A DNA stretch of 64,000 bases from an uncultured Alphaproteobacteria bacterium (GCA_910585375.1 CAJUCZ010000005.1:11380-75379); one strand, 5' to 3'. Shown: positions 7,385-46,681, counted from the first letter of the stretch. Made by a program: numbers and translations. The notes: generated from the sequence alone by a model not told the origin.

Positions 7385-8353
7385 TTAACGGACTTCGGTA
7401 ACCGCACGCAGGTTGCCGTCGCGGTTGATTTGGACGACACGCAGTTTTTGCCGCATTTCCTCAATAATTTTCTTTCGGTCCATGGTCGGATAAGAGTGCA
7501 GAATACGGTCGGCAAAAGCAGCATAAGCAGCCTCGGAGCTTTCGGCGTGGATGGTGGCCAGACAGTTATCGTGACCGGAACCCATAAGTTCCCAAATCGC
7601 GCCGGCGTTGCCGGTTGAAATCTCACCGCCGATAATGGCATCGGGCGTAAAACGCACGACCAAGTCGATAACTTTGGCATAGGTCAGTTCGTTGGTCTGG
7701 GCGGTACGGGAAAGAACGAGGTGAACCCGATTGGGGTGCGGCACCATCAATTCGCGCGTATCTTCAATGGTCAAAATGCGTTTATGAATGTCCAAAATTT
7801 TAAGCAGATTGTTCAAAAAAGTGGTTTTACCGGTTGAGGTTGCGCCGCTGACCAGAATATGGTCACCGCGTTTGATGCTAATCAGCAGGCGTTCATACGG
7901 GTCTTCCGGATCTTTAATGTCTTTCAGCGGGTTAATTTTATGCAATTTTTCACCTTGCGCCAAACCGTAGTCTTTCAAACCCCAGGCCACGTCTTCACTA
8001 TGAACGCGGATTGTCAGGGCAATGCCGCCGGTCAGATCCTCATCATCGTACATAATGTTCCGGCCGGCAATGGCAGAAAAACGGTGCTCGCCTGGAATAG
8101 CGGCATAAACAACCGGTGTACCGCTGACCGGATCAAACGGAAGCTCATAAGTATTGGCGATGATATAAAGCAAATCCGTCAGGTATTCTTTGGTCAGTTT
8201 TTCATCCTTATACATCACCCACGGATAAGCCCTTTTTCCGCGCAGGCGCAACCATATTTGTTTGGAACGGTTTATGGCAACCTCCTCGATATTATCTTGC
8301 GTGTACCAGTAAGAAAGCGGTCTTAACACGGATTCAAGTACTTTAAAGCTCAT
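7385..8353 (-). CDS. virB11: Type IV secretion ATPase VirB11/TrbB
   Basis: Walker A (LVSGATSTGKTTFLNNLL), IIGGEI...GH..CLATIHAESS His-box region, and the ~320-aa length typical of VirB11; AAGGAG ribosome-binding site upstream of the ATG. Confidence 0.85.
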   Translation of the reverse strand: MSFKVLESVLRPLSYWYTQDNIEEVAINRSKQIWLRLRGKRAYPWVMYKDEKLTKEYLTDLLYIIANTYELPFDPVSGTPVVYAAIPGEHRFSAIAGRNIMYDDEDLTGGIALTIRVHSEDVAWGLKDYGLAQGEKLHKINPLKDIKDPEDPYERLLISIKRGDHILVSGATSTGKTTFLNNLLKILDIHKRILTIEDTRELMVPHPNRVHLVLSRTAQTNELTYAKVIDLVVRFTPDAIIGGEISTGNAGAIWELMGSGHDNCLATIHAESSEAAYAAFADRILHSYPTMDRKKIIEEMRQKLRVVQINRDGNLRAVTEVR

Positions 8354-8364
8354 CGACTTTCTCC

Positions 8365-11300
8365 TTAAAACAACTGCGGAACTCCGGCAGCGGGTTCAGT
8401 ATTGTCGTTCTTTTTAGCGCCGCTGTCCGTTTTTTGCGGCGTGGTTGCCGTTACAACTGCCGGACGGTTGGAAACCTGTGCTTTAGACATACCTGCGCCT
8501 GTTCCCGGCGGGGCAACAACCGGCGCACCACCCGGACGAACCGGAGGCTGATAGTATGCCGGCGGCTGGTAGGCCTCTTTCTTACGGCGGGCGCTTTCGC
8601 CACCGTCATCCATCAAAGGAACTTCTTCAACTTCGGCATTGTTCTGCGTATTTTTATATTGAACATTATTGGCAGACGGATAGTTGGCTTTGAAGCGTTC
8701 TTCGTTCGTGCTGTCTACCTGAAGCGGAATATCATCATCCAAACGGCGGGCGCTTTCGTCTTTAGCGCGTTCCTGTGTTCTCAGCCAGAGGTCAACCTGC
8801 GGATAAACAATGATTCTTGTACCTGCCGGAACATAAGTCATAGGCTGAATACTTGCCTTATCCGTCAGGATTTGGTTGAAAATACTGTCCATTGAGTTCA
8901 GGAAGTTCTGGCGCGCATCGTTAGCGGCTTCCTGTTTGGAGTTTTCTGTTTCTCCGTTATTCTTTTCATTTGTATTAATATAATAAGCCGCTGTTGAACT
9001 TAAGATTGTTGTCATCAAAGGCAAAGAATAGCGTTTGAACAGCTGCTGATCCAAATAGCCCAAAGCACCCCCGCGTCCCTGCGCGTCACCGGTCAGGCCG
9101 TTGAAGACAAAGATTGAGCCGTCGGGACGAATCAGGCGCCCCCAGCTGATTTGAATCTTGGCCGAGGTTGATGTTCTTTCGCCATTGGTACTGGTTACGC
9201 CGTCAATTGTGCCAATCAGCCTTGAACCGGCCGGAATCAGAATATTGCGGCCTTCCTCGGCATAGACGTTGCGCTCAACAATTGCCGTTACCGGCGTCGG
9301 GTTGCTGGAATCTATAGAGCGGGCGATAACGGCCGGAATCGGCTTATCAGCCAAAATCATTTCATCCATTTTAACACGCCAAGAAGAGATAACCTGTTCA
9401 ATGCCCTGTTCCGTCCAGTCTTTTTGCATGCCGTCAAAGTCTTCACGATTAAAACCGCTGGAGATTTTGCCGACTGAAATATTCTTCCGGCGTTCGTTCA
9501 TTGCAACACCCAAAGCATATTGGCGCTGAGGGTCATAACGTTCTCCGGGGCCAAAACCGCCGCCGGGGCCGAGGTTGGTTCCGGGACCGACACCAACGCC
9601 ATAAGCCGCACCGGGACCGAATTCTCCGGCAGGAACAAAGATTTCTCCGCCTTGCGGTTTTTTGATTTCTTCAATGCCGATCATCGTTCCGTTGTCATCA
9701 ATTACAATACCGTCAGGAAGTTTGCGCCCCAGAACATTGCCTTTTTTATCGACAACGCGGCCGTCTTCCAGAATATCTCCCAAATAATCACCGTCAGGCG
9801 TTAATGCAATATTAAAAGACTTGCGATATTCGCCGCCGTCAGCCGAACCGGGTATTTTTTCATCAATTGCACCGATTTTTATATCGCTTTTGCCGCCACT
9901 TTGTTTCGGACGAGTTCTCTCTTCCGGCGTTTTTTCATACCAGTTCACGCCGATACCGCCCAAAATATTACCGCTGGCATCCAATACCGTACCGTCTTTA
10001 TCCAATTTGCCGATGATTTTTCCGTCAATGTCTTCAACCGTACCGTCCGGATTGACATAGCCGACAAAGTTGCCGTTGGCGTCATAGGCTTTTTCTTTCT
10101 CAGGCACTTTGCCGATGACTTCATTGTTCAAGCCGATAATCTCGCCGTTTTTATTGCGGTGGCCGATAACATTGCCGTTCTCATCCACAAGTTCGCCGTT
10201 ATCATTTAAATAACCGATAACACGGCCGTCCTTGTCGACAACAATCTGATGGCTGCCGGGGCTGTAAAATTGCAGCGGATTGGCATAAGCCAAAACTTCT
10301 TTATTTTCGTCTTTCAGCTGTCCGAGCCGGTCTATTTTCCCTAAATCTTTATGATTCAGGTCATAAACCGTACCGTCCATGGCAAGTTCGCCGACAACGA
10401 TACGATCCTGATTGCGCAGCAGATAGCTGCGGTTGCCGCGGGCAATGACCTTATCATCGTTATCGACCAGAAAACCGCGGTTAATCCGTCCCAGCTTGCG
10501 GTTGGAAAAGTTCATAACCTCACCGCTGTTGCTGATATAACCGACAGCCTCAAAATTGGCATCATAAACATAAAAATCGTACAGCGCATAACCGGCTTTT
10601 TGCTCATTATGCCAAACATAGCCGTCGTGCGCGACCTGACCGACAACTTCGTTCCGGCCGTTTAACACTTCGCCTTTGGCATTGACCCGTCCGAGATACT
10701 GGTTGGCATTGTCAAAAGCAACCTGATAACGGAACAATTCGCCAATCGGATTGCCGGTTTTGGAATTTACGTTTTCATTGCCCTGAACATAGCCGATAAA
10801 CTGATTGTCTTCATCTGCCACACGGCCATCCAGAATCGAACGGCCGATGATTTTGTCATTAAAGCTCATTACCGGATAATACGGAATCAGGCGGCCGGCA
10901 ATTTCTCCGCCTTTTTTGACCAGACGCCCCTGCGCATTAACACAGCCGATGTTTTCATTATTATAATTTACCGCCGCACCGTTGACAGAGGTTACGCCGA
11001 TGACATTGCCGGTATTATCAACAATACCGTTCAGTTCGACCATATGACCGTTGATTTTGCCGTTTGAACCGACAATTTGTCCGTTGGCCAGAACACGGCC
11101 GATTTGAACGCCGCGGAAATTGCGAATTTCGGCAGCCGGCGTCAAAACGCCGAGGCTTGCGCATTTATCCGTAACGGCGCCGCCATAATTTATAATCCGG
11201 CCGGACAAAATATTCACGTTATCAATAACGCCGCCGTTCTCAACGACCCGGCCGACCGAAGAGCCGTCTTTATCCCTGACAACGCCGTCCAGACCGGCAT

Positions 11301-45717: not shown

Positions 45718-45718
45718 T

Positions 45719-46681
45719 TTAATATTCCTGAAACAGGCTCATGCCGCGGGCAAGGCGGGTCATTTGGGTTTCAATTGACGTACCAAGGTTTAACTTGCCG
45801 CTTTTGATAATGCCGCGCACCTGATCGCCGTGGGAAGAGTTCGGGTTGGCAAAGAGGTAGGTCGCTACCGGTTTTTTTACGCTCGTGCCCATTAATCCCT
45901 GATGCAATACGCCGATAATACCACGGGAGAACAAGTCATAGGCCAACTCTTCGCTCATTGACGTAGAGGCGGCGTATTTAACAACAGAATAAATCGCATC
46001 GGTAATGTTATTGGCGTGAATGGTCGAAAGCACCAAGTGGCCGGAAGTGGCAGCGCGCAAGACCTCGCTGGCGGTATCGGGTGTTCTGATCTCTCCTACC
46101 AGAATATAGTTTGGTTTTGAGCGCAATGCCGATTTTAACGAAGCCCCCCAGTCATCATTCTGAGGCTGCGTCTGTTTGCACAAGCCCAAGCCGCCTTTGG
46201 TGGATTTGTAAATCCCGTCCAGAGGCATTTCGGTCGGGTCTTCAATGGTATAAGCAAAGCCGCCTTCAATTGCCAAAAACTCTTTCAACAGCGAAGAAAT
46301 GGCCGTGGTTTTGCCGGCGCCGGTCGGACCTGACCACAGAATAAGACCGGAAGCGTTTGACAATGACAGCAGGAACTTGGTTAATTCATGCGGAAAACCC
46401 AGACTGCCGAAAGGCGGGACTTTCTCCGGCATTTTACGGGCACAATATTGTGTACCGTACAGGCTTTCGGTTCGCTCAACACGGTAAAAAATGTTTTCAT
46501 AAAGCAAGGAATAAGACGGGTTATGGCCGTCCCATTTTTCTTCCAGCCGTTTATAAAAAATGTCAAAATCTTCGGCATCCAAAATTGTCAGGCCGTTTTT
46601 GGTCTGTCCGTCCGGAATGAACGCAATCCGATCCGGCGTGATGTAAATGTCCGAAAATTTGACGTCATTGATTTTTACCAT
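45719..46681 (-). CDS. pilT: PilT/PilU-family hexameric ATPase (320 aa)
   Basis: Walker A (WSGPTGAGKTTAI), YTIEDPTE, Walker B and Asp box (ILVGEIRTPDT), His box (GHLVLSTIHANN); the length is typical of PilT. DotB-like is an alternative. Confidence 0.75.
   Translation of the reverse strand: MVKINDVKFSDIYITPDRIAFIPDGQTKNGLTILDAEDFDIFYKRLEEKWDGHNPSYSLLYENIFYRVERTESLYGTQYCARKMPEKVPPFGSLGFPHELTKFLLSLSNASGLILWSGPTGAGKTTAISSLLKEFLAIEGGFAYTIEDPTEMPLDGIYKSTKGGLGLCKQTQPQNDDWGASLKSALRSKPNYILVGEIRTPDTASEVLRAATSGHLVLSTIHANNITDAIYSVVKYAASTSMSEELAYDLFSRGIIGVLHQGLMGTSVKKPVATYLFANPNSSHGDQVRGIIKSGKLNLGTSIETQMTRLARGMSLFQEY

What the first reader, a model, noticed from the sequence alone, without database searches (positions are those of the whole stretch)
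7385..46681. A 40-kb composite secretion and pilus island that lacks integrase, relaxase and coupling protein within the window
A near-complete but remodelled VirB system and a type IVb pilus sit back to back between ordinary chromosomal genes (yejAB, accA, rmuC). Within 64 kb there is no VirD4, relaxase, integrase or transposase. This is either an ancient domesticated host-interaction apparatus, as with Rickettsiales rvh, or the remaining conjugation genes lie just outside. The giant repeat-expanded components argue for a specialised, possibly host-cell-contacting, machine rather than a plain conjugative pilus.
Basis: inference. Interest (0 to 1): 0.6.

Follow-up and report, generated by a model that had tools for sequence, protein, structure and literature searches.

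The report
Chromosomal secretion-plus-pilus machine of gut Alphaproteobacteria
A roughly 58-kb block that pairs a heavily remodelled VirB-type type IV secretion system with an R64-like type IVb pilus is a fixed chromosomal feature of a large group of uncultured gut Alphaproteobacteria, not a mobile island, and it probably mediates contact with other cells rather than plasmid transfer.

Summary
Window 7385-46681 encodes VirB2 (three copies), B3, B4, B7, B8 (two copies), B9, B10 and B11, divergently adjoining an R64/PilN-type type IVb pilus operon.

No coupling protein, relaxase, integrase, transposase or tRNA was found.

The left boundary is wrong. Window 338-6565 and about 11 kb beyond the window start belong to the system:
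- four tandem VirB6 paralogs, one fused to an M23 peptidoglycan endopeptidase
- an HTH regulator
- a conserved operon that includes a second, divergent secretin

The block lies between a 16S rRNA gene and housekeeping genes that lead to dnaA, about 18 kb past the pilus genes.

VirB4 relatives at 77-99% identity occur in 222 stretches of species-representative genomes of gut Alphaproteobacteria (CAG:495, Candidatus Scatocola). Gene order is conserved and codon usage matches the flanks. The nearest plasmid relatives (35-39% VirB4 identity) carry a relaxase and VirD4, and those two genes are absent here.

So this is a domesticated derivative of a conjugation system, not an ICE. It resembles rvh in architecture but was not shown to be related to it. 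Its function is inferred: contact-dependent adhesion and secretion. I found no description of it in the searched literature.

The parts
338..3778 (+). g01: 1146-aa cytoplasmic acidic repeat protein. About eight ~70-aa repeats, then a C-terminus with GQDWEWEYEE motifs. No signal peptide or TM segment. Candidate substrate or cytoplasmic accessory.
   Evidence: No Pfam hit. No TM or Walker A. Repeats seen. The same position holds a 950-1148-aa protein in other species. Only the N-terminal ~190 aa are conserved, at 35%.
3833..4486 (+). g02: conserved small cytoplasmic protein of unknown role.
   Evidence: No Pfam hit. 64% identical to its counterpart in another species. Syntenic.
4496..5752 (+). 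g03: 418-aa lipoprotein, a divergent secretin. It is the second secretin of the region.
   Evidence: Lipobox SGC at residue 20. 928 homologs at 62-97% identity with no Pfam annotation. Its profile reaches 440-850-aa proteins at E 4e-15 to 9e-9, and 10 of 10 tested carry Pfam Secretin. The top 35 Foldseek PDB hits are all secretins, although the model is low-confidence at pLDDT 54.5.
5756..6565 (+). g04: bitopic inner-membrane protein with a Pro/Ser-rich cytoplasmic N-terminus, one TM segment and a ~95-aa periplasmic domain. Possibly the partner of the g03 secretin (inference).
   Evidence: TM at 156-174. 48% identical to its counterpart in another species. Always follows g03.
6892..7152 (-). 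Small HTH-like ORF of 86 aa downstream of VirB11. Present in this species and its close relatives only.
   Evidence: Gene call. Absent at this position in L094 and L097-L100.
7385..8353 (-). VirB11 ATPase.
   Evidence: TIGR02788 VirB11 4.6e-43, full length but below the curated cutoff. Walker A present. 41% identical to the Microvirga plasmid VirB11.
8365..12993 (-). Giant 1542-aa VirB10: N-terminal signal/anchor, eight beta-flower repeats, C-terminal TrbI/VirB10 domain at residues 1213-1404.
   Evidence: Pfam Bflower_2 2e-58 (8 stretches) and TrbI 1e-35. NCBIfam ComB10/VirB10 domain. 1578-1746 aa in other species. 51-nt hairpin periodicity.
12996..16160 (-). 1054-aa membrane-anchored beta-flower protein. 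It is a paralog of the VirB10 N-terminal array and lacks the TrbI domain.
   Evidence: Pfam Bflower_2 2e-54 (7 stretches) and DUF3659. TM at 36-54. 26.5% identity to VirB10 over 829 aa.
16106..17806 (-). VirB9, 566 aa.
   Evidence: Pfam CagX 4.8e-11. 34% identical to the Microvirga VirB9 over 291 aa.
17821..18564 (-). VirB8 copy a.
   Evidence: Pfam VirB8 2.8e-21. Best PDB matches are VirB8 chains 4mei and 4kz1, at 4e-9 and 7e-8.
18579..18767 (-). VirB7-like 62-aa lipoprotein.
   Evidence: Lipobox LSGC. phmmer 1e-13 and 8e-11 to the small ORFs that precede VirB8 in the Erythrobacter and Microvirga plasmids.
18958..19719 (-). VirB8 copy b, the divergent paralog.
   Evidence: Pfam VirB8 9e-13. 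28% identical to copy a. Both copies are present in most related loci.
19729..23976 (-). u1415: 1415-aa secreted, fast-evolving protein of unknown fold.
   Evidence: Signal peptide and no TM. No Pfam hit. Homologs in 75 of 80 loci at a median of only 27% identity.
23939..27319 (-). u381, u241 and u504: three secreted, all-helical, fast-evolving proteins in the position where VirB5/VirB6 normally sit. Possible VirB5-like proteins.
   Evidence: Signal peptides. No Pfam hits. 24-32% median identity across species. Weak profile links to one another and to plasmid VirB5-like proteins. No PDB sequence hit. The u381 model is all-helical but low-confidence.
27623..30154 (-). VirB4 ATPase.
   Evidence: TIGR00929 2e-106. 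Walker A present. 77-99% identical across 222 genome stretches.
30048..30350 (-). VirB3.
   Evidence: Two TM segments. phmmer 2.7e-13 to the annotated Microvirga VirB3. Present in 79 of 80 loci.
30488..31222 (-). u244: G/N/E-rich ORF found in only three related loci. Possibly a remnant of the long extension that is fused to the third VirB2 paralog in other species (inference).
   Evidence: (3 loci).
31416..32957 (-). Three VirB2/TrbC pilin paralogs, of 223, 138 and 135 aa.
   Evidence: Pfam TrbC 2e-7, 3e-6 and 6e-10. phmmer to the Microvirga VirB2 down to 3e-19. Exactly three VirB2-like ORFs occur in 58 of 68 loci.
33118..34956 (+). p612: first gene of the pilus operon. Membrane-anchored, with a long disordered region and a conserved C-terminal domain.
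   Evidence: No Pfam or NCBIfam hit. Syntenic in 50 loci.
35014..35733 (+). TcpQ-domain lipoprotein, a pilus secretin accessory.
   Evidence: Pfam TcpQ 2.3e-15. Lipobox.
35714..37336 (+). PilN-family type IVb pilus secretin lipoprotein.
   Evidence: TIGR02520 at 269 bits against a cutoff of 288. Pfam Secretin.
37360..40267 (+). PilO (424 aa) and a PilP-domain protein (552 aa, with a 105-bp x3.2 proline-rich tandem repeat).
   Evidence: Pfam PAP_PilO 1.7e-14. TIGR03021 PilP 2.5e-7. Tandem repeat.
40277..43093 (+). PilQ-type assembly ATPase (557 aa) and PilR/GspF-type platform protein (374 aa).
   Evidence: Pfam T2SSE 3e-68 and T2SSF 2.5e-24. tblastn gives 36-38% identity to plasmid T2SS/T4P/T4SS-family ATPase genes, most of them on conjugative E. 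coli plasmids.
43474..45717 (+). Three PilS/bundlin-like type IVb pilin genes.
   Evidence: Pfam PilS/Bundlin. The second has a clear prepilin leader with G-1 and E+5. They are mutual paralogs.
45719..46681 (-). PilT-like ATPase of 320 aa, a candidate pilus retraction motor. Its membership is uncertain.
   Evidence: Best NCBIfam match is the PilT family, 1.6e-32, below cutoff. It is adjacent to the pilins here. Its adjacency in other species could not be examined.

Best explanation
This is a vertically inherited chromosomal apparatus of a lineage of uncultured gut Alphaproteobacteria. It derives from a P-type (VirB/D4) conjugation system that has lost its relaxase and coupling protein at the locus.

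What has been added or changed (shown):
- four VirB6 paralogs, one carrying an apparently active M23 peptidoglycan endopeptidase in place of VirB1
- two VirB8 and three VirB2
- a giant VirB10, plus a partner protein, together carrying about 15 beta-flower domains per protomer pair
- several fast-evolving secreted helical proteins
- a second secretin-like lipoprotein
- in most species, an adjacent R64/PilN-type type IVb pilus

Proposed working (inferred):
- The type IVb pilus attaches the cell to a target cell, possibly pulled in by the PilT-like ATPase.
- The VirB machine, energised by VirB4 and VirB11, builds VirB2-based surface structures.
- It exports proteins without a coupling protein, as the Brucella VirB and Bordetella Ptl systems do. 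The Sec-dependent, rapidly diverging proteins encoded inside the operon are the most likely exported or surface-exposed parts.
- The target (host epithelium, gut protist or another bacterium) is unknown.
For: Parts list.

No T4CP, relaxase, integrase or tRNA:
- none in the window
- none in the flanks out to 16S rRNA on the left and dnaA-dnaN-recF on the right
- none in four further lookups (L094 and L097-L100, with different protein lengths) downstream of VirB11
- no tblastn hit in 1.89 Mb of related loci

Conservation:
- VirB4 is 77-99% identical in 222 species-representative genome stretches.
- Gene order is conserved in 80 loci.
- VirB6 paralogs are 1:1 orthologous between species.
- 40 of 69 contigs end 35-45 kb downstream of VirB4. 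In this species the 16S gene lies about 39 kb downstream.
- Codon usage matches the flanks.

Ancestry: the nearest plasmid systems (Microvirga, Erythrobacter; 35-39% VirB4 identity) have the order MobA - VirB2...VirB11 - VirD4.

Fast-evolving secreted proteins: 22-36% identity against 78% for VirB4.

Pilus linkage is kept through rearrangements: divergent in about 50 loci, co-directional in L029, L033, L052 and L061.

The M23 motifs HxxxD and HxH are intact.
Against: - Function is entirely inferred. There is no expression or experimental data, and no effector with a recognisable domain.
- A T4CP or relaxase elsewhere in these genomes could not be excluded. Only about 95 kb of this genome and +-10 kb windows of the others were visible.
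- In at least 13 loci housekeeping genes abut the VirB2 side, so the pilus is not always adjacent and the coupling may be loose.
- The loci were found by searching with VirB4. The fraction of the lineage that lacks the system is therefore unknown.
- The PilT-like ATPase lies next to ABC-transporter genes and may not belong to the pilus.
Confidence: 0.6

Rival explanations
1. It is still a DNA-transfer machine. The coupling protein and relaxase are encoded elsewhere on the chromosome or on a plasmid and use this T4SS in trans, with the type IVb pilus stabilising mating pairs as in IncI (R64) plasmids and PAPI-1-type ICEs.
For: The nearest relatives are conjugative-type modules with MobA and VirD4. 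In known systems the pairing of a type IVb pilus with a T4SS is typical of conjugation (established knowledge of R64 and PAPI-1). The pilus ATPase is 36-38% identical to plasmid pilus/secretion ATPase genes, most of them on conjugative E. coli plasmids. The rest of the genome was not visible.
Against: No VirD4 or relaxase follows VirB11 or precedes VirB2 in any locus examined. The system is fixed next to rRNA and near oriC, with no mobility genes. The paralog expansions, giant periplasmic arrays and fast-evolving secreted proteins are not features of plain conjugation systems.
Confidence: 0.13
2. It is a DNA uptake or release (competence-like) system, comparable to Helicobacter ComB or the Neisseria GGI. 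The pilus would capture DNA and the T4CP-less T4SS would move it across the envelope.
For: It lacks a T4CP and relaxase, like ComB. The VirB10 C-terminal domain scores marginally better against the ComB10 model than against the VirB10 model (112 vs 101 bits, both far below cutoff). A retraction-type ATPase and two secretins are present.
Against: VirB11 is present, whereas ComB lacks it (established knowledge). No ComEC/ComEA/DprA-type genes are in the region. R64-type pili are not known to serve as DNA-uptake pili. The ComB10 score difference is not meaningful.
Confidence: 0.12
3. It is an interbacterial killing T4SS like the Xanthomonadales X-T4SS. The peptidoglycan hydrolase domains would act as, or assist, toxins delivered into rival bacteria.
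For: M23 and, in other species, VgrG3-like C-terminal (peptidoglycan-degrading) domains are fused to a VirB6 paralog. The dense gut habitat favours contact-dependent antagonism.
Against: X-T4SSs use VirD4 and effectors with XVIPCD domains, and their VirB7 carries an N0 domain (established knowledge; PMC3093366 for VirB7). None of these was found. The hydrolase domains are N-terminal parts of a polytopic membrane protein, which fits local cell-wall remodelling in place of VirB1. No immunity-like gene pairs were recognised.
Confidence: 0.1
4. It is an ordinary integrative conjugative element or genomic island whose mobility genes lie outside the window.
For: T4SS plus type IVb pilus combinations are common on ICEs. 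A ~200-nt direct repeat occurs at 6576-6790 and at 43128-43370.
Against: The flanks were read out to 16S rRNA and dnaA and hold no integrase, relaxase, T4CP or tRNA. The same locus and order occur in many species. Codon usage is host-like. The repeat has a third, degenerate copy at 54127 outside the system, and its two good copies would cut the pilus operon in two, so it is a dispersed intergenic repeat and not an att pair.
Confidence: 0.03

Closest known systems
Alphaproteobacterial plasmid VirB/D4-type conjugation modules (Microvirga sp. VF16 pMVF16-3; Erythrobacter aureus YH-07 plasmid)
   Same: They are the closest sequence relatives found in an annotated collection: VirB4 35-39%, VirB11 41%, VirB8/9/10 33-34% identity. 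The core order is the same: VirB2-B3-B4-...-B7-B8-B9-B10-B11.
   Different: The plasmid modules have a MobA/MobL relaxase upstream and VirD4 downstream, single copies of every gene, a VirB10 of normal size (530-590 aa), VirB6 inside the operon, and no type IVb pilus. The window system lacks the relaxase and VirD4, and has all the expansions and additions listed above.
Rickettsiales vir homolog (rvh) T4SS
   Same: It is a chromosomal, vertically inherited P-type T4SS of an alphaproteobacterial lineage, with multicopy enlarged VirB6, duplicated VirB8 and no evident VirB1. The hallmarks are listed in PMC11077975.
   Different: rvh also duplicates VirB4 and VirB9 and keeps the coupling protein RvhD4. 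It has no beta-flower VirB10, no type IVb pilus and no secretin. Here VirB4 and VirB9 are single in the locus and no D4 follows VirB11. No specific sequence affinity to rvh was shown. The VirB8 search matched VirB8 and TrwG structures, none recognised as rickettsial.
T4CP-less effector/toxin T4SSs (Brucella VirB; Bordetella pertussis Ptl)
   Same: They have a VirB2-B11 set without VirD4 and are chromosomal. They secrete proteins that can reach the periplasm by Sec (established knowledge). This is the working model adopted here.
   Different: Those systems are compact, with single-copy genes, a normal VirB10 and no associated pilus operon. Their substrates are known, whereas none is identified here.
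Helicobacter pylori Cag T4SS (CagY/CagX)
   Same: Both have a giant repeat-containing VirB10 homolog, an enlarged VirB9 homolog (the Pfam match here is to the CagX family) and extra outer-membrane-complex components. Cag is a host-contacting machine.
   Different: CagY repeats are near-identical DNA repeats that recombine. Here the repeats are old and diverged (61-78% at 51-nt units, with no tandem-repeat call) and have the beta-flower fold. Cag has a VirD4 homolog (Cag-beta) and no type IVb pilus.
IncI1 (R64) thin pilus and PAPI-1/SPI-7-type pil operons
   Same: The gene families match: PilN secretin lipoprotein, PilO, PilP, PilQ ATPase, PilR platform, PilS pilin and a TcpQ/PilL-like lipoprotein. 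The pilus is physically linked to a T4SS.
   Different: No PilV adhesin shufflon or Rci recombinase, no prepilin peptidase (PilU) and no PilT transglycosylase were found in the window. There are three pilin paralogs, and a PilT-family ATPase sits alongside. The partner T4SS is VirB-type, not Dot/Icm-like (R64) or GI-type (PAPI-1).
Patescibacteria chromosomal T4SS (PMC12102498)
   Same: It is relaxase-less, chromosomal, lineage-wide and often located near dnaA. It is interpreted as co-opted from conjugation for a cell-association lifestyle.
   Different: It belongs to a different T4SS class (MPF-FATA, monoderm type) and an unrelated phylum, and it has none of the specific additions seen here.

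Membership tests
P-type (VirB/D4, MPF-T) type IV secretion system | VirB4 ATPase | tested here: met
   TIGR00929 2e-106 and Pfam CagE_TrbE_VirB, with a Walker A motif. Scores are below the curated cutoffs, so it is a divergent member.
P-type (VirB/D4, MPF-T) type IV secretion system | Core envelope set VirB3, VirB6, VirB7, VirB8, VirB9 and VirB10, plus VirB2 pilin and VirB11 | tested here: met
   All were found. VirB6 (TrbL) lies only outside the window on the left, as four paralogs.
P-type (VirB/D4, MPF-T) type IV secretion system | VirD4 coupling protein | tested here: not met
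   No Pfam hit, no extra Walker A protein and no tblastn hit to the VirD4 of the closest plasmid systems, in the window, its flanks or 95 related loci. The rest of the genome was not visible.
P-type (VirB/D4, MPF-T) type IV secretion system | VirB1 lytic transglycosylase and VirB5 pilus-tip protein | tested here: inconclusive
   No SLT-type domain was found. An M23 endopeptidase fused to VirB6 probably substitutes for VirB1. VirB5 has only weak profile links, to u504 and u381.
Conjugative element / ICE | Relaxase (MOB) and oriT | tested here: not met
   No relaxase Pfam hit, and tblastn with MobA/MobL of the nearest plasmids gives no hit. oriT is not testable.
Conjugative element / ICE | Integrase, att duplication or tRNA target, and a foreign composition | tested here: not met
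   No integrase or tRNA. The only long direct repeat is a dispersed intergenic repeat. Codon usage is host-like.
Conjugative element / ICE | Variable presence and position among related genomes | tested here: not met
   The order is the same in 80 loci, and the distance to the contig break or rRNA is conserved in 40 of 69. The denominator of genomes lacking the system is unknown.
Rickettsiales vir homolog (rvh) | Multicopy VirB6 and duplicated VirB8 | tested here: met
   Four VirB6 paralogs and two VirB8.
Rickettsiales vir homolog (rvh) | Duplicated VirB4 and VirB9 | tested here: not met
   There is one VirB4 and one VirB9 in the ~58-kb locus. Second copies elsewhere in the genome could not be excluded.
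Rickettsiales vir homolog (rvh) | RvhD4 coupling protein downstream of RvhB11; phylogenetic placement within the rvh clade | tested here: not met
   No D4 follows VirB11 in the species examined. No rvh affinity was seen in the one available test, VirB8 against the PDB. A proper VirB4 phylogeny was not possible with these tools.
R64/PilN-type type IVb pilus | PilN-family secretin, PilO, PilP, PilQ ATPase, PilR platform and PilS-type pilin | tested here: met
   TIGR02520 at 269 bits (cutoff 288), PAP_PilO, the PilP domain, T2SSE, T2SSF and PilS/Bundlin.
R64/PilN-type type IVb pilus | Prepilin peptidase (PilU) and PilV adhesin with shufflon | tested here: not met
   No Peptidase_A24 and no recombinase or shufflon in the window. 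A peptidase may be encoded elsewhere.
Secretin superfamily (for g03, 4496-5752) | Homology to the secretin N-domains and C-domain | tested here: met
   Profile search: all 10 of the more distant full-length hits that were tested carry Pfam Secretin. All 35 Foldseek hits at E <= 1e-3 are secretins. Caveats: there is no direct Pfam hit, the model is low-confidence, and the sequence match covers mainly the N-terminal and middle part.

The most novel reading that the evidence does not exclude
The block is a lineage-defining apparatus, close to the replication origin, that underlies an obligate or habitual cell-to-cell association of these uncultured gut Alphaproteobacteria with a partner such as host epithelium, a gut protist or another bacterium. 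This would parallel rvh in Rickettsiales and the chromosomal T4SS of Patescibacteria epibionts. It would use an unprecedented architecture: a coupling-protein-less VirB core surrounded by a periplasmic cage of beta-flower domains, VirB2 hairpins embedded in 1500-2000-aa coiled-coil proteins, a dedicated second secretin, and a retractile type IVb pilus working as one machine.
Probability: 0.25. Interest if true: 0.85.

Novelty: new variant of a known kind. Interest (0 to 1): 0.62.

Why it matters
These Alphaproteobacteria (CAG:495, Candidatus Scatocola and relatives) are recurrent members of human, ruminant, rodent and chicken gut metagenomes, and as far as I know from background knowledge they have not been cultivated. 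A 58-kb secretion-and-pilus apparatus with a highly conserved core, sitting beside the rRNA operon and near the replication origin in up to 222 species genomes, is likely to be central to how they live.

It offers four things:
- A second alphaproteobacterial example, apparently unrelated to rvh in sequence, of a conjugation system domesticated with VirB6 and VirB8 multiplication. This bears on how such systems are repurposed.
- The first functional context I am aware of for the recently described beta-flower fold, as a 15-domain array on VirB10 and its partner.
- An unusual association of a secretin with a VirB-type T4SS.
- Concrete candidates (the fast-evolving secreted proteins and the giant VirB2 fusions) for surface molecules that meet the host or competitors.

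Six full-text searches found no description of this system.

Tried and rejected
Searches that led nowhere:
- The metagenome-contig scan with the VirB6-M23 protein returned only two short fragments.
- Rfam found nothing at gathering threshold in the window or in L092/L094. The 16S end was confirmed only in L091 with an E-value search.
- PDB sequence searches were uninformative for the beta-flower protein, VirB8b, the g03 profile and the u241 profile.
- A direct Pfam scan of 41 g03 homologs gave no Secretin hit, and hhalign of g03 against the pilus secretin family gave only 4% probability. The secretin assignment rests on bridging homologs and Foldseek.
- AlphaFold of g03 had a shallow alignment (pLDDT 54.5). 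AlphaFold of u381 as a single sequence was poor (pLDDT 49), so I did not run a fold search on u381.
- The Candidatus Paracaedimonas plasmid T4SS (31% VirB4 identity) is a plain compact MOBQ plasmid system and adds nothing.
- The GTDB name RF32/CAG-239 for the lineage comes from my memory. The text held for the chicken-gut paper did not contain the name. NCBI places Candidatus Scatocola in Rhodospirillales.

Ideas rejected:
- att-site reading of the 6576/43128 direct repeat: there is a third copy, and the pair would split the pilus operon.
- CagY-like recombining repeats: there are no near-identical DNA repeats in the beta-flower genes.
- u1415 as a VirB6: it has no TM segments.

Full report
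**What is in the window**

The minus strand from 32957 down to 7385 reads:
- three VirB2/TrbC pilins
- a poorly conserved ORF (u244)
- VirB3 (phmmer 2.7e-13 to an annotated VirB3)
- VirB4
- four secreted proteins without known domains (504, 241, 381 and 1415 aa)
- VirB8b
- a 62-aa VirB7 lipoprotein
- VirB8a
- VirB9
- a 1054-aa membrane-anchored protein with seven beta-flower repeats
- a 1542-aa VirB10 with eight beta-flower repeats ahead of its TrbI domain
- VirB11

Diverging from the VirB2 genes, the plus strand from 33118 to 45717 reads:
- a 612-aa anchored protein
- a TcpQ-domain lipoprotein
- a PilN-family secretin (TIGR02520, 269 bits against a cutoff of 288)
- PilO
- a PilP-domain protein
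- a PilQ-type ATPase
- a PilR/GspF-type platform
- three PilS/bundlin-like pilins

A PilT-family-like ATPase (45719-46681) converges on the pilins. All matches to curated T4SS models lie far below their cutoffs (VirB4 357 against 643 bits; VirB11 147 against 250). The system is therefore divergent.

**Absence of mobility functions**

- No ORF matches a coupling protein, relaxase, integrase or transposase.
- Walker A motifs occur only in VirB4, VirB11 and the two pilus-type ATPases.
- There is no tRNA and no Rfam family.
- The VirD4 and MobA/MobL proteins of the closest plasmid systems give no tblastn hit in the window or in 1.89 Mb of related loci. Their VirB8-11 proteins hit at 33-41% identity in the same search.

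**The boundaries are not as described**

Exact-protein lookups place the window on a 93-kb metagenome contig and on two NCBI MAG assemblies.

To the right, the window continues into rpsT, dnaA, dnaN and recF. dnaA starts about 0.9 kb past the window end, which is about 18 kb from the last pilus-associated gene.

The same four genes, in the same order, converge on VirB11 in every other species examined. Three of them are 48-67% identical between species.

Further left, outside the window, lie:
- a double-HTH regulator
- four tandem multi-TM VirB6/TrbL paralogs of 886, 433, 616 and 954 aa, which are mutual homologs and 1:1 orthologous between species
- three small genes
- the 5' end of a 16S rRNA gene, reading away from the system (Rfam SSU, 121 bits, model positions 1-186, cut by the contig end)

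The last VirB6 paralog has an N-terminal M23 peptidoglycan endopeptidase with intact HxxxD and HxH motifs. In other species it also has a VgrG3-like C-terminal domain.

The unit therefore spans about 58 kb, from roughly 10-11 kb left of the window to 46681. It lies between an rRNA operon and origin-proximal housekeeping genes. Neither flank holds the 'missing' conjugation genes.

**A second secretin**

The conserved 418-aa lipoprotein at 4496-5752 has no Pfam or PDB sequence match. Two other lines of evidence identify it.
- A profile of 41 orthologs, searched against 1.84 billion representative proteins, reaches 440-850-aa proteins at E 4e-15 to 9e-9. All ten that I tested carry the Pfam Secretin domain, some with TcpQ and STN domains.
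- A low-confidence AlphaFold model (pLDDT 54.5) gives 35 Foldseek hits at E <= 1e-3, and every one is a secretin: GspD, PilQ, BfpB, InvG or RcpA.

I take it to be a divergent secretin encoded with the VirB6 cluster. To my knowledge that is unusual for a VirB-type system.

**Who carries it**

VirB4 homologs at 79-98% identity fill the whole top-120 list of a 5.8-billion-protein search. The few named ones are 'MAG: Alphaproteobacteria bacterium'.

In one-genome-per-species GTDB contigs, 222 stretches encode a relative. The best 80 (77-99% identity) come from gut MAGs of humans, deer, ruminants, mice and chickens. They include Proteobacteria bacterium CAG:495, Candidatus Scatocola and 'Azospirillum sp. 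51_20'. NCBI places Scatocola in Rhodospirillales. I recall the GTDB name as RF32/CAG-239 but could not verify it here.

A tblastn synteny map of those 80 loci shows three things.
- The order VirB2 x3 - B3 - B4 - variable secreted proteins - B8b - B8a - B9 holds throughout.
- Core proteins are conserved: VirB4 78%, VirB3 63%, VirB8 56-61%, pilus secretin 66%.
- The secreted proteins between VirB4 and VirB8 are at 22-36% identity.

Of 69 contigs, 40 end 35-45 kb downstream of VirB4. In this species that is where the 16S gene lies, about 39 kb away. The rRNA-adjacent position therefore seems conserved. Codon usage and GC3 of the T4SS and pilus genes match the flanks.

All of this argues for vertical inheritance and against a recently acquired island. 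One caveat applies: the loci were selected by having VirB4, so the fraction of the lineage that lacks the system is unknown.

**Pilus linkage**

The pilus operon adjoins the VirB2 genes divergently in about 50 of the 80 loci. In L029 and L033 the whole operon sits co-directionally just upstream of VirB3. In L052 and L061, PilQ-PilR-pilins sit just upstream of VirB2. In at least 13 loci, however, housekeeping genes (rpsA/cmk, ROK/LuxS, nusA-infB) abut the VirB2 side. The association is therefore frequent and survives rearrangement, but it is not universal.

**Ancestry**

The closest annotated relatives are plasmid modules in Microvirga, Erythrobacter and Sphingosinicella (35-39% VirB4 identity), followed by Candidatus Paracaedimonas plasmids at 31%. 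The Microvirga and Erythrobacter modules read MobA/MobL - DnaB-like - VirB2 - B3 - B4 - B5 - B6 - B7 - B8 - B9 - B10 - B11 - VirD4. Genes are single-copy and VirB10 is 530-590 aa.

Relative to that layout, the gut lineage has:
- lost the relaxase and VirD4 at the locus
- moved and quadrupled VirB6
- duplicated VirB8 and tripled VirB2
- inserted about 1200 aa of beta-flower repeats into VirB10 and added a beta-flower paralog
- replaced the VirB5/B6 interval with secreted helical proteins

**Comparison with rvh**

The rvh hallmarks are duplicated VirB4, VirB8 and VirB9, multicopy VirB6 and no VirB5 (PMC11077975). Two of these are met here: multicopy VirB6 and duplicated VirB8. Two are not met in the locus: VirB4 and VirB9 are single. 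VirB5 is unresolved. There is no RvhD4 equivalent. The only available sequence test, VirB8 against the PDB, matched VirB8 and TrwG structures, none of which I recognised as rickettsial. I therefore treat the resemblance to rvh as similar architecture, not membership.

**Beta-flower repeats**

The beta-flower fold was described only in 2023, from AlphaFold models, and has no known function. It belongs to the Tubby-like clan, and some members are lipoproteins (PMC10584680). Here the repeats show a 51-nt (17-aa hairpin) periodicity at 61-78% DNA identity. No near-identical tandem repeats were called. They are old structural repeats, unlike the recombining repeats of CagY.

**Mechanism**

Shown: the parts, their conservation, and the absence of coupling and processing genes nearby.

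Inferred:
- The type IVb pilus, possibly retracted by the PilT-like ATPase, provides attachment.
- VirB4 and VirB11 power assembly of VirB2-based structures, and export proceeds without a coupling protein, as in Brucella VirB and Bordetella Ptl.
- The Sec-dependent, fast-evolving proteins and the VirB2 paralogs form the exposed interface.
- The M23 domain opens the cell's own peptidoglycan in place of VirB1.
- The beta-flower arrays and the second secretin enlarge the envelope-spanning complex.

Rivals are conjugation in trans, DNA uptake or release, interbacterial killing, and an ordinary ICE. They are weighed in the rivals section. Only the ICE reading is essentially excluded.

**Literature**

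Six full-text searches found nothing that links this lineage to a T4SS. The nearest published parallel is the relaxase-less, dnaA-proximal chromosomal T4SS of Patescibacteria (PMC12102498).

**Verdict**

It is mis-bounded on the left and incomplete, because VirB6, VirB7, the regulator and the second secretin were missed. The 'domesticated apparatus' reading is supported and the 'ordinary ICE' reading is refuted. The target and the substrates remain unknown. I rate it a new variant of a known kind, with moderately high interest.

Noticed in passing
window 4496-5752 (+): A conserved 418-aa lipoprotein with no Pfam hit turns out to be a divergent secretin, encoded with the VirB6 cluster and not with the pilus operon. 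It is followed by a bitopic protein (5756-6565) that could be its inner-membrane partner.
   Followed up: yes
L018 3979-9612, L023 5186-9646, L036 4506-9635, L037 3447-9623, L052 3948-9638, L066 3933-9620 (orthologs of window 31416-32087): In many species the third VirB2 paralog is a two-TM VirB2 hairpin embedded in the middle of a 1486-2058-aa, A/E/K/Q-rich, Cys-punctuated coiled-coil protein with a signal peptide. In the window species it is only 223 aa, followed by a separate G/N/E-rich ORF (30488-31222) that may be a remnant of that extension.
   Followed up: partly
L005 1725-4592 (about 0.9-3.8 kb left of the window start); L094 9470-13105; L097 570-4181: One VirB6 paralog carries an N-terminal M23 peptidoglycan endopeptidase with intact HxxxD/HxH motifs. 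In other species it also has a T6SS VgrG3-like C-terminal (peptidoglycan-degrading) domain. It probably stands in for VirB1, but it could be an antibacterial function.
   Followed up: partly
window 6576-6790, 43128-43370, and degenerate at 54127-54300: A ~200-nt intergenic repeat occurs in direct orientation at 84-94% identity between the two good copies. One copy lies between the converging operons and one between PilR and the first pilin. There is no Rfam match. It is probably a dispersed MITE/REP-like element, not an att site.
   Followed up: partly
window 338-3778 (+): A 1146-aa cytoplasmic protein with about eight ~70-aa repeats (VADExFAQxLAxSF...ELIxAIRES) and an extremely acidic tail with four GQDWEWEYEE motifs. 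Only its first ~190 residues are conserved between species. It is a candidate substrate or adaptor of the system.
   Followed up: partly
window 38858-39196: A 105-bp x3.2 tandem repeat (91% matches) encodes proline-rich (I/V)VPKTG units inside the PilP-domain protein. It is a possible length-variable linker.
   Followed up: no
window 45719-50986 (-): The PilT-like ATPase is the last gene of a same-strand run made up of a 455-aa membrane protein, an SBP_bac_5 solute-binding protein and a single ABC permease. That run has no second permease and no ABC ATPase. Whether the secretion-type ATPase belongs with the pilus or with this odd transporter remnant is unresolved.
   Followed up: no
L080 1-5700, L023 1-4000, L051 1-4800, L084 1-9300: In at least 13 species housekeeping genes (rpsA, cmk, ROK kinase, LuxS, PNP, nusA-infB) directly abut the VirB2 end of the T4SS. 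There the pilus operon is either elsewhere or missing.
   Followed up: partly
L091 1-192 (-), L092 1-50; about 11.6 kb left of the window start: All assemblies of this region break inside the 5' end of a 16S rRNA gene about 0.3 kb upstream of the first gene of the block. A short leader motif (CCGTCTGCGTATCCTCTTA) upstream of it is shared between two species.
   Followed up: yes
L005 4716-5696 (ends at window ~191): A 326-aa regulator with two HTH_3 domains and a C-terminal beta-rich domain sits between the VirB6 cluster and the g01-g04 genes in every species examined. It is the likely local regulator. A faint Phage_CI_repr hit appears in one species.
   Followed up: no
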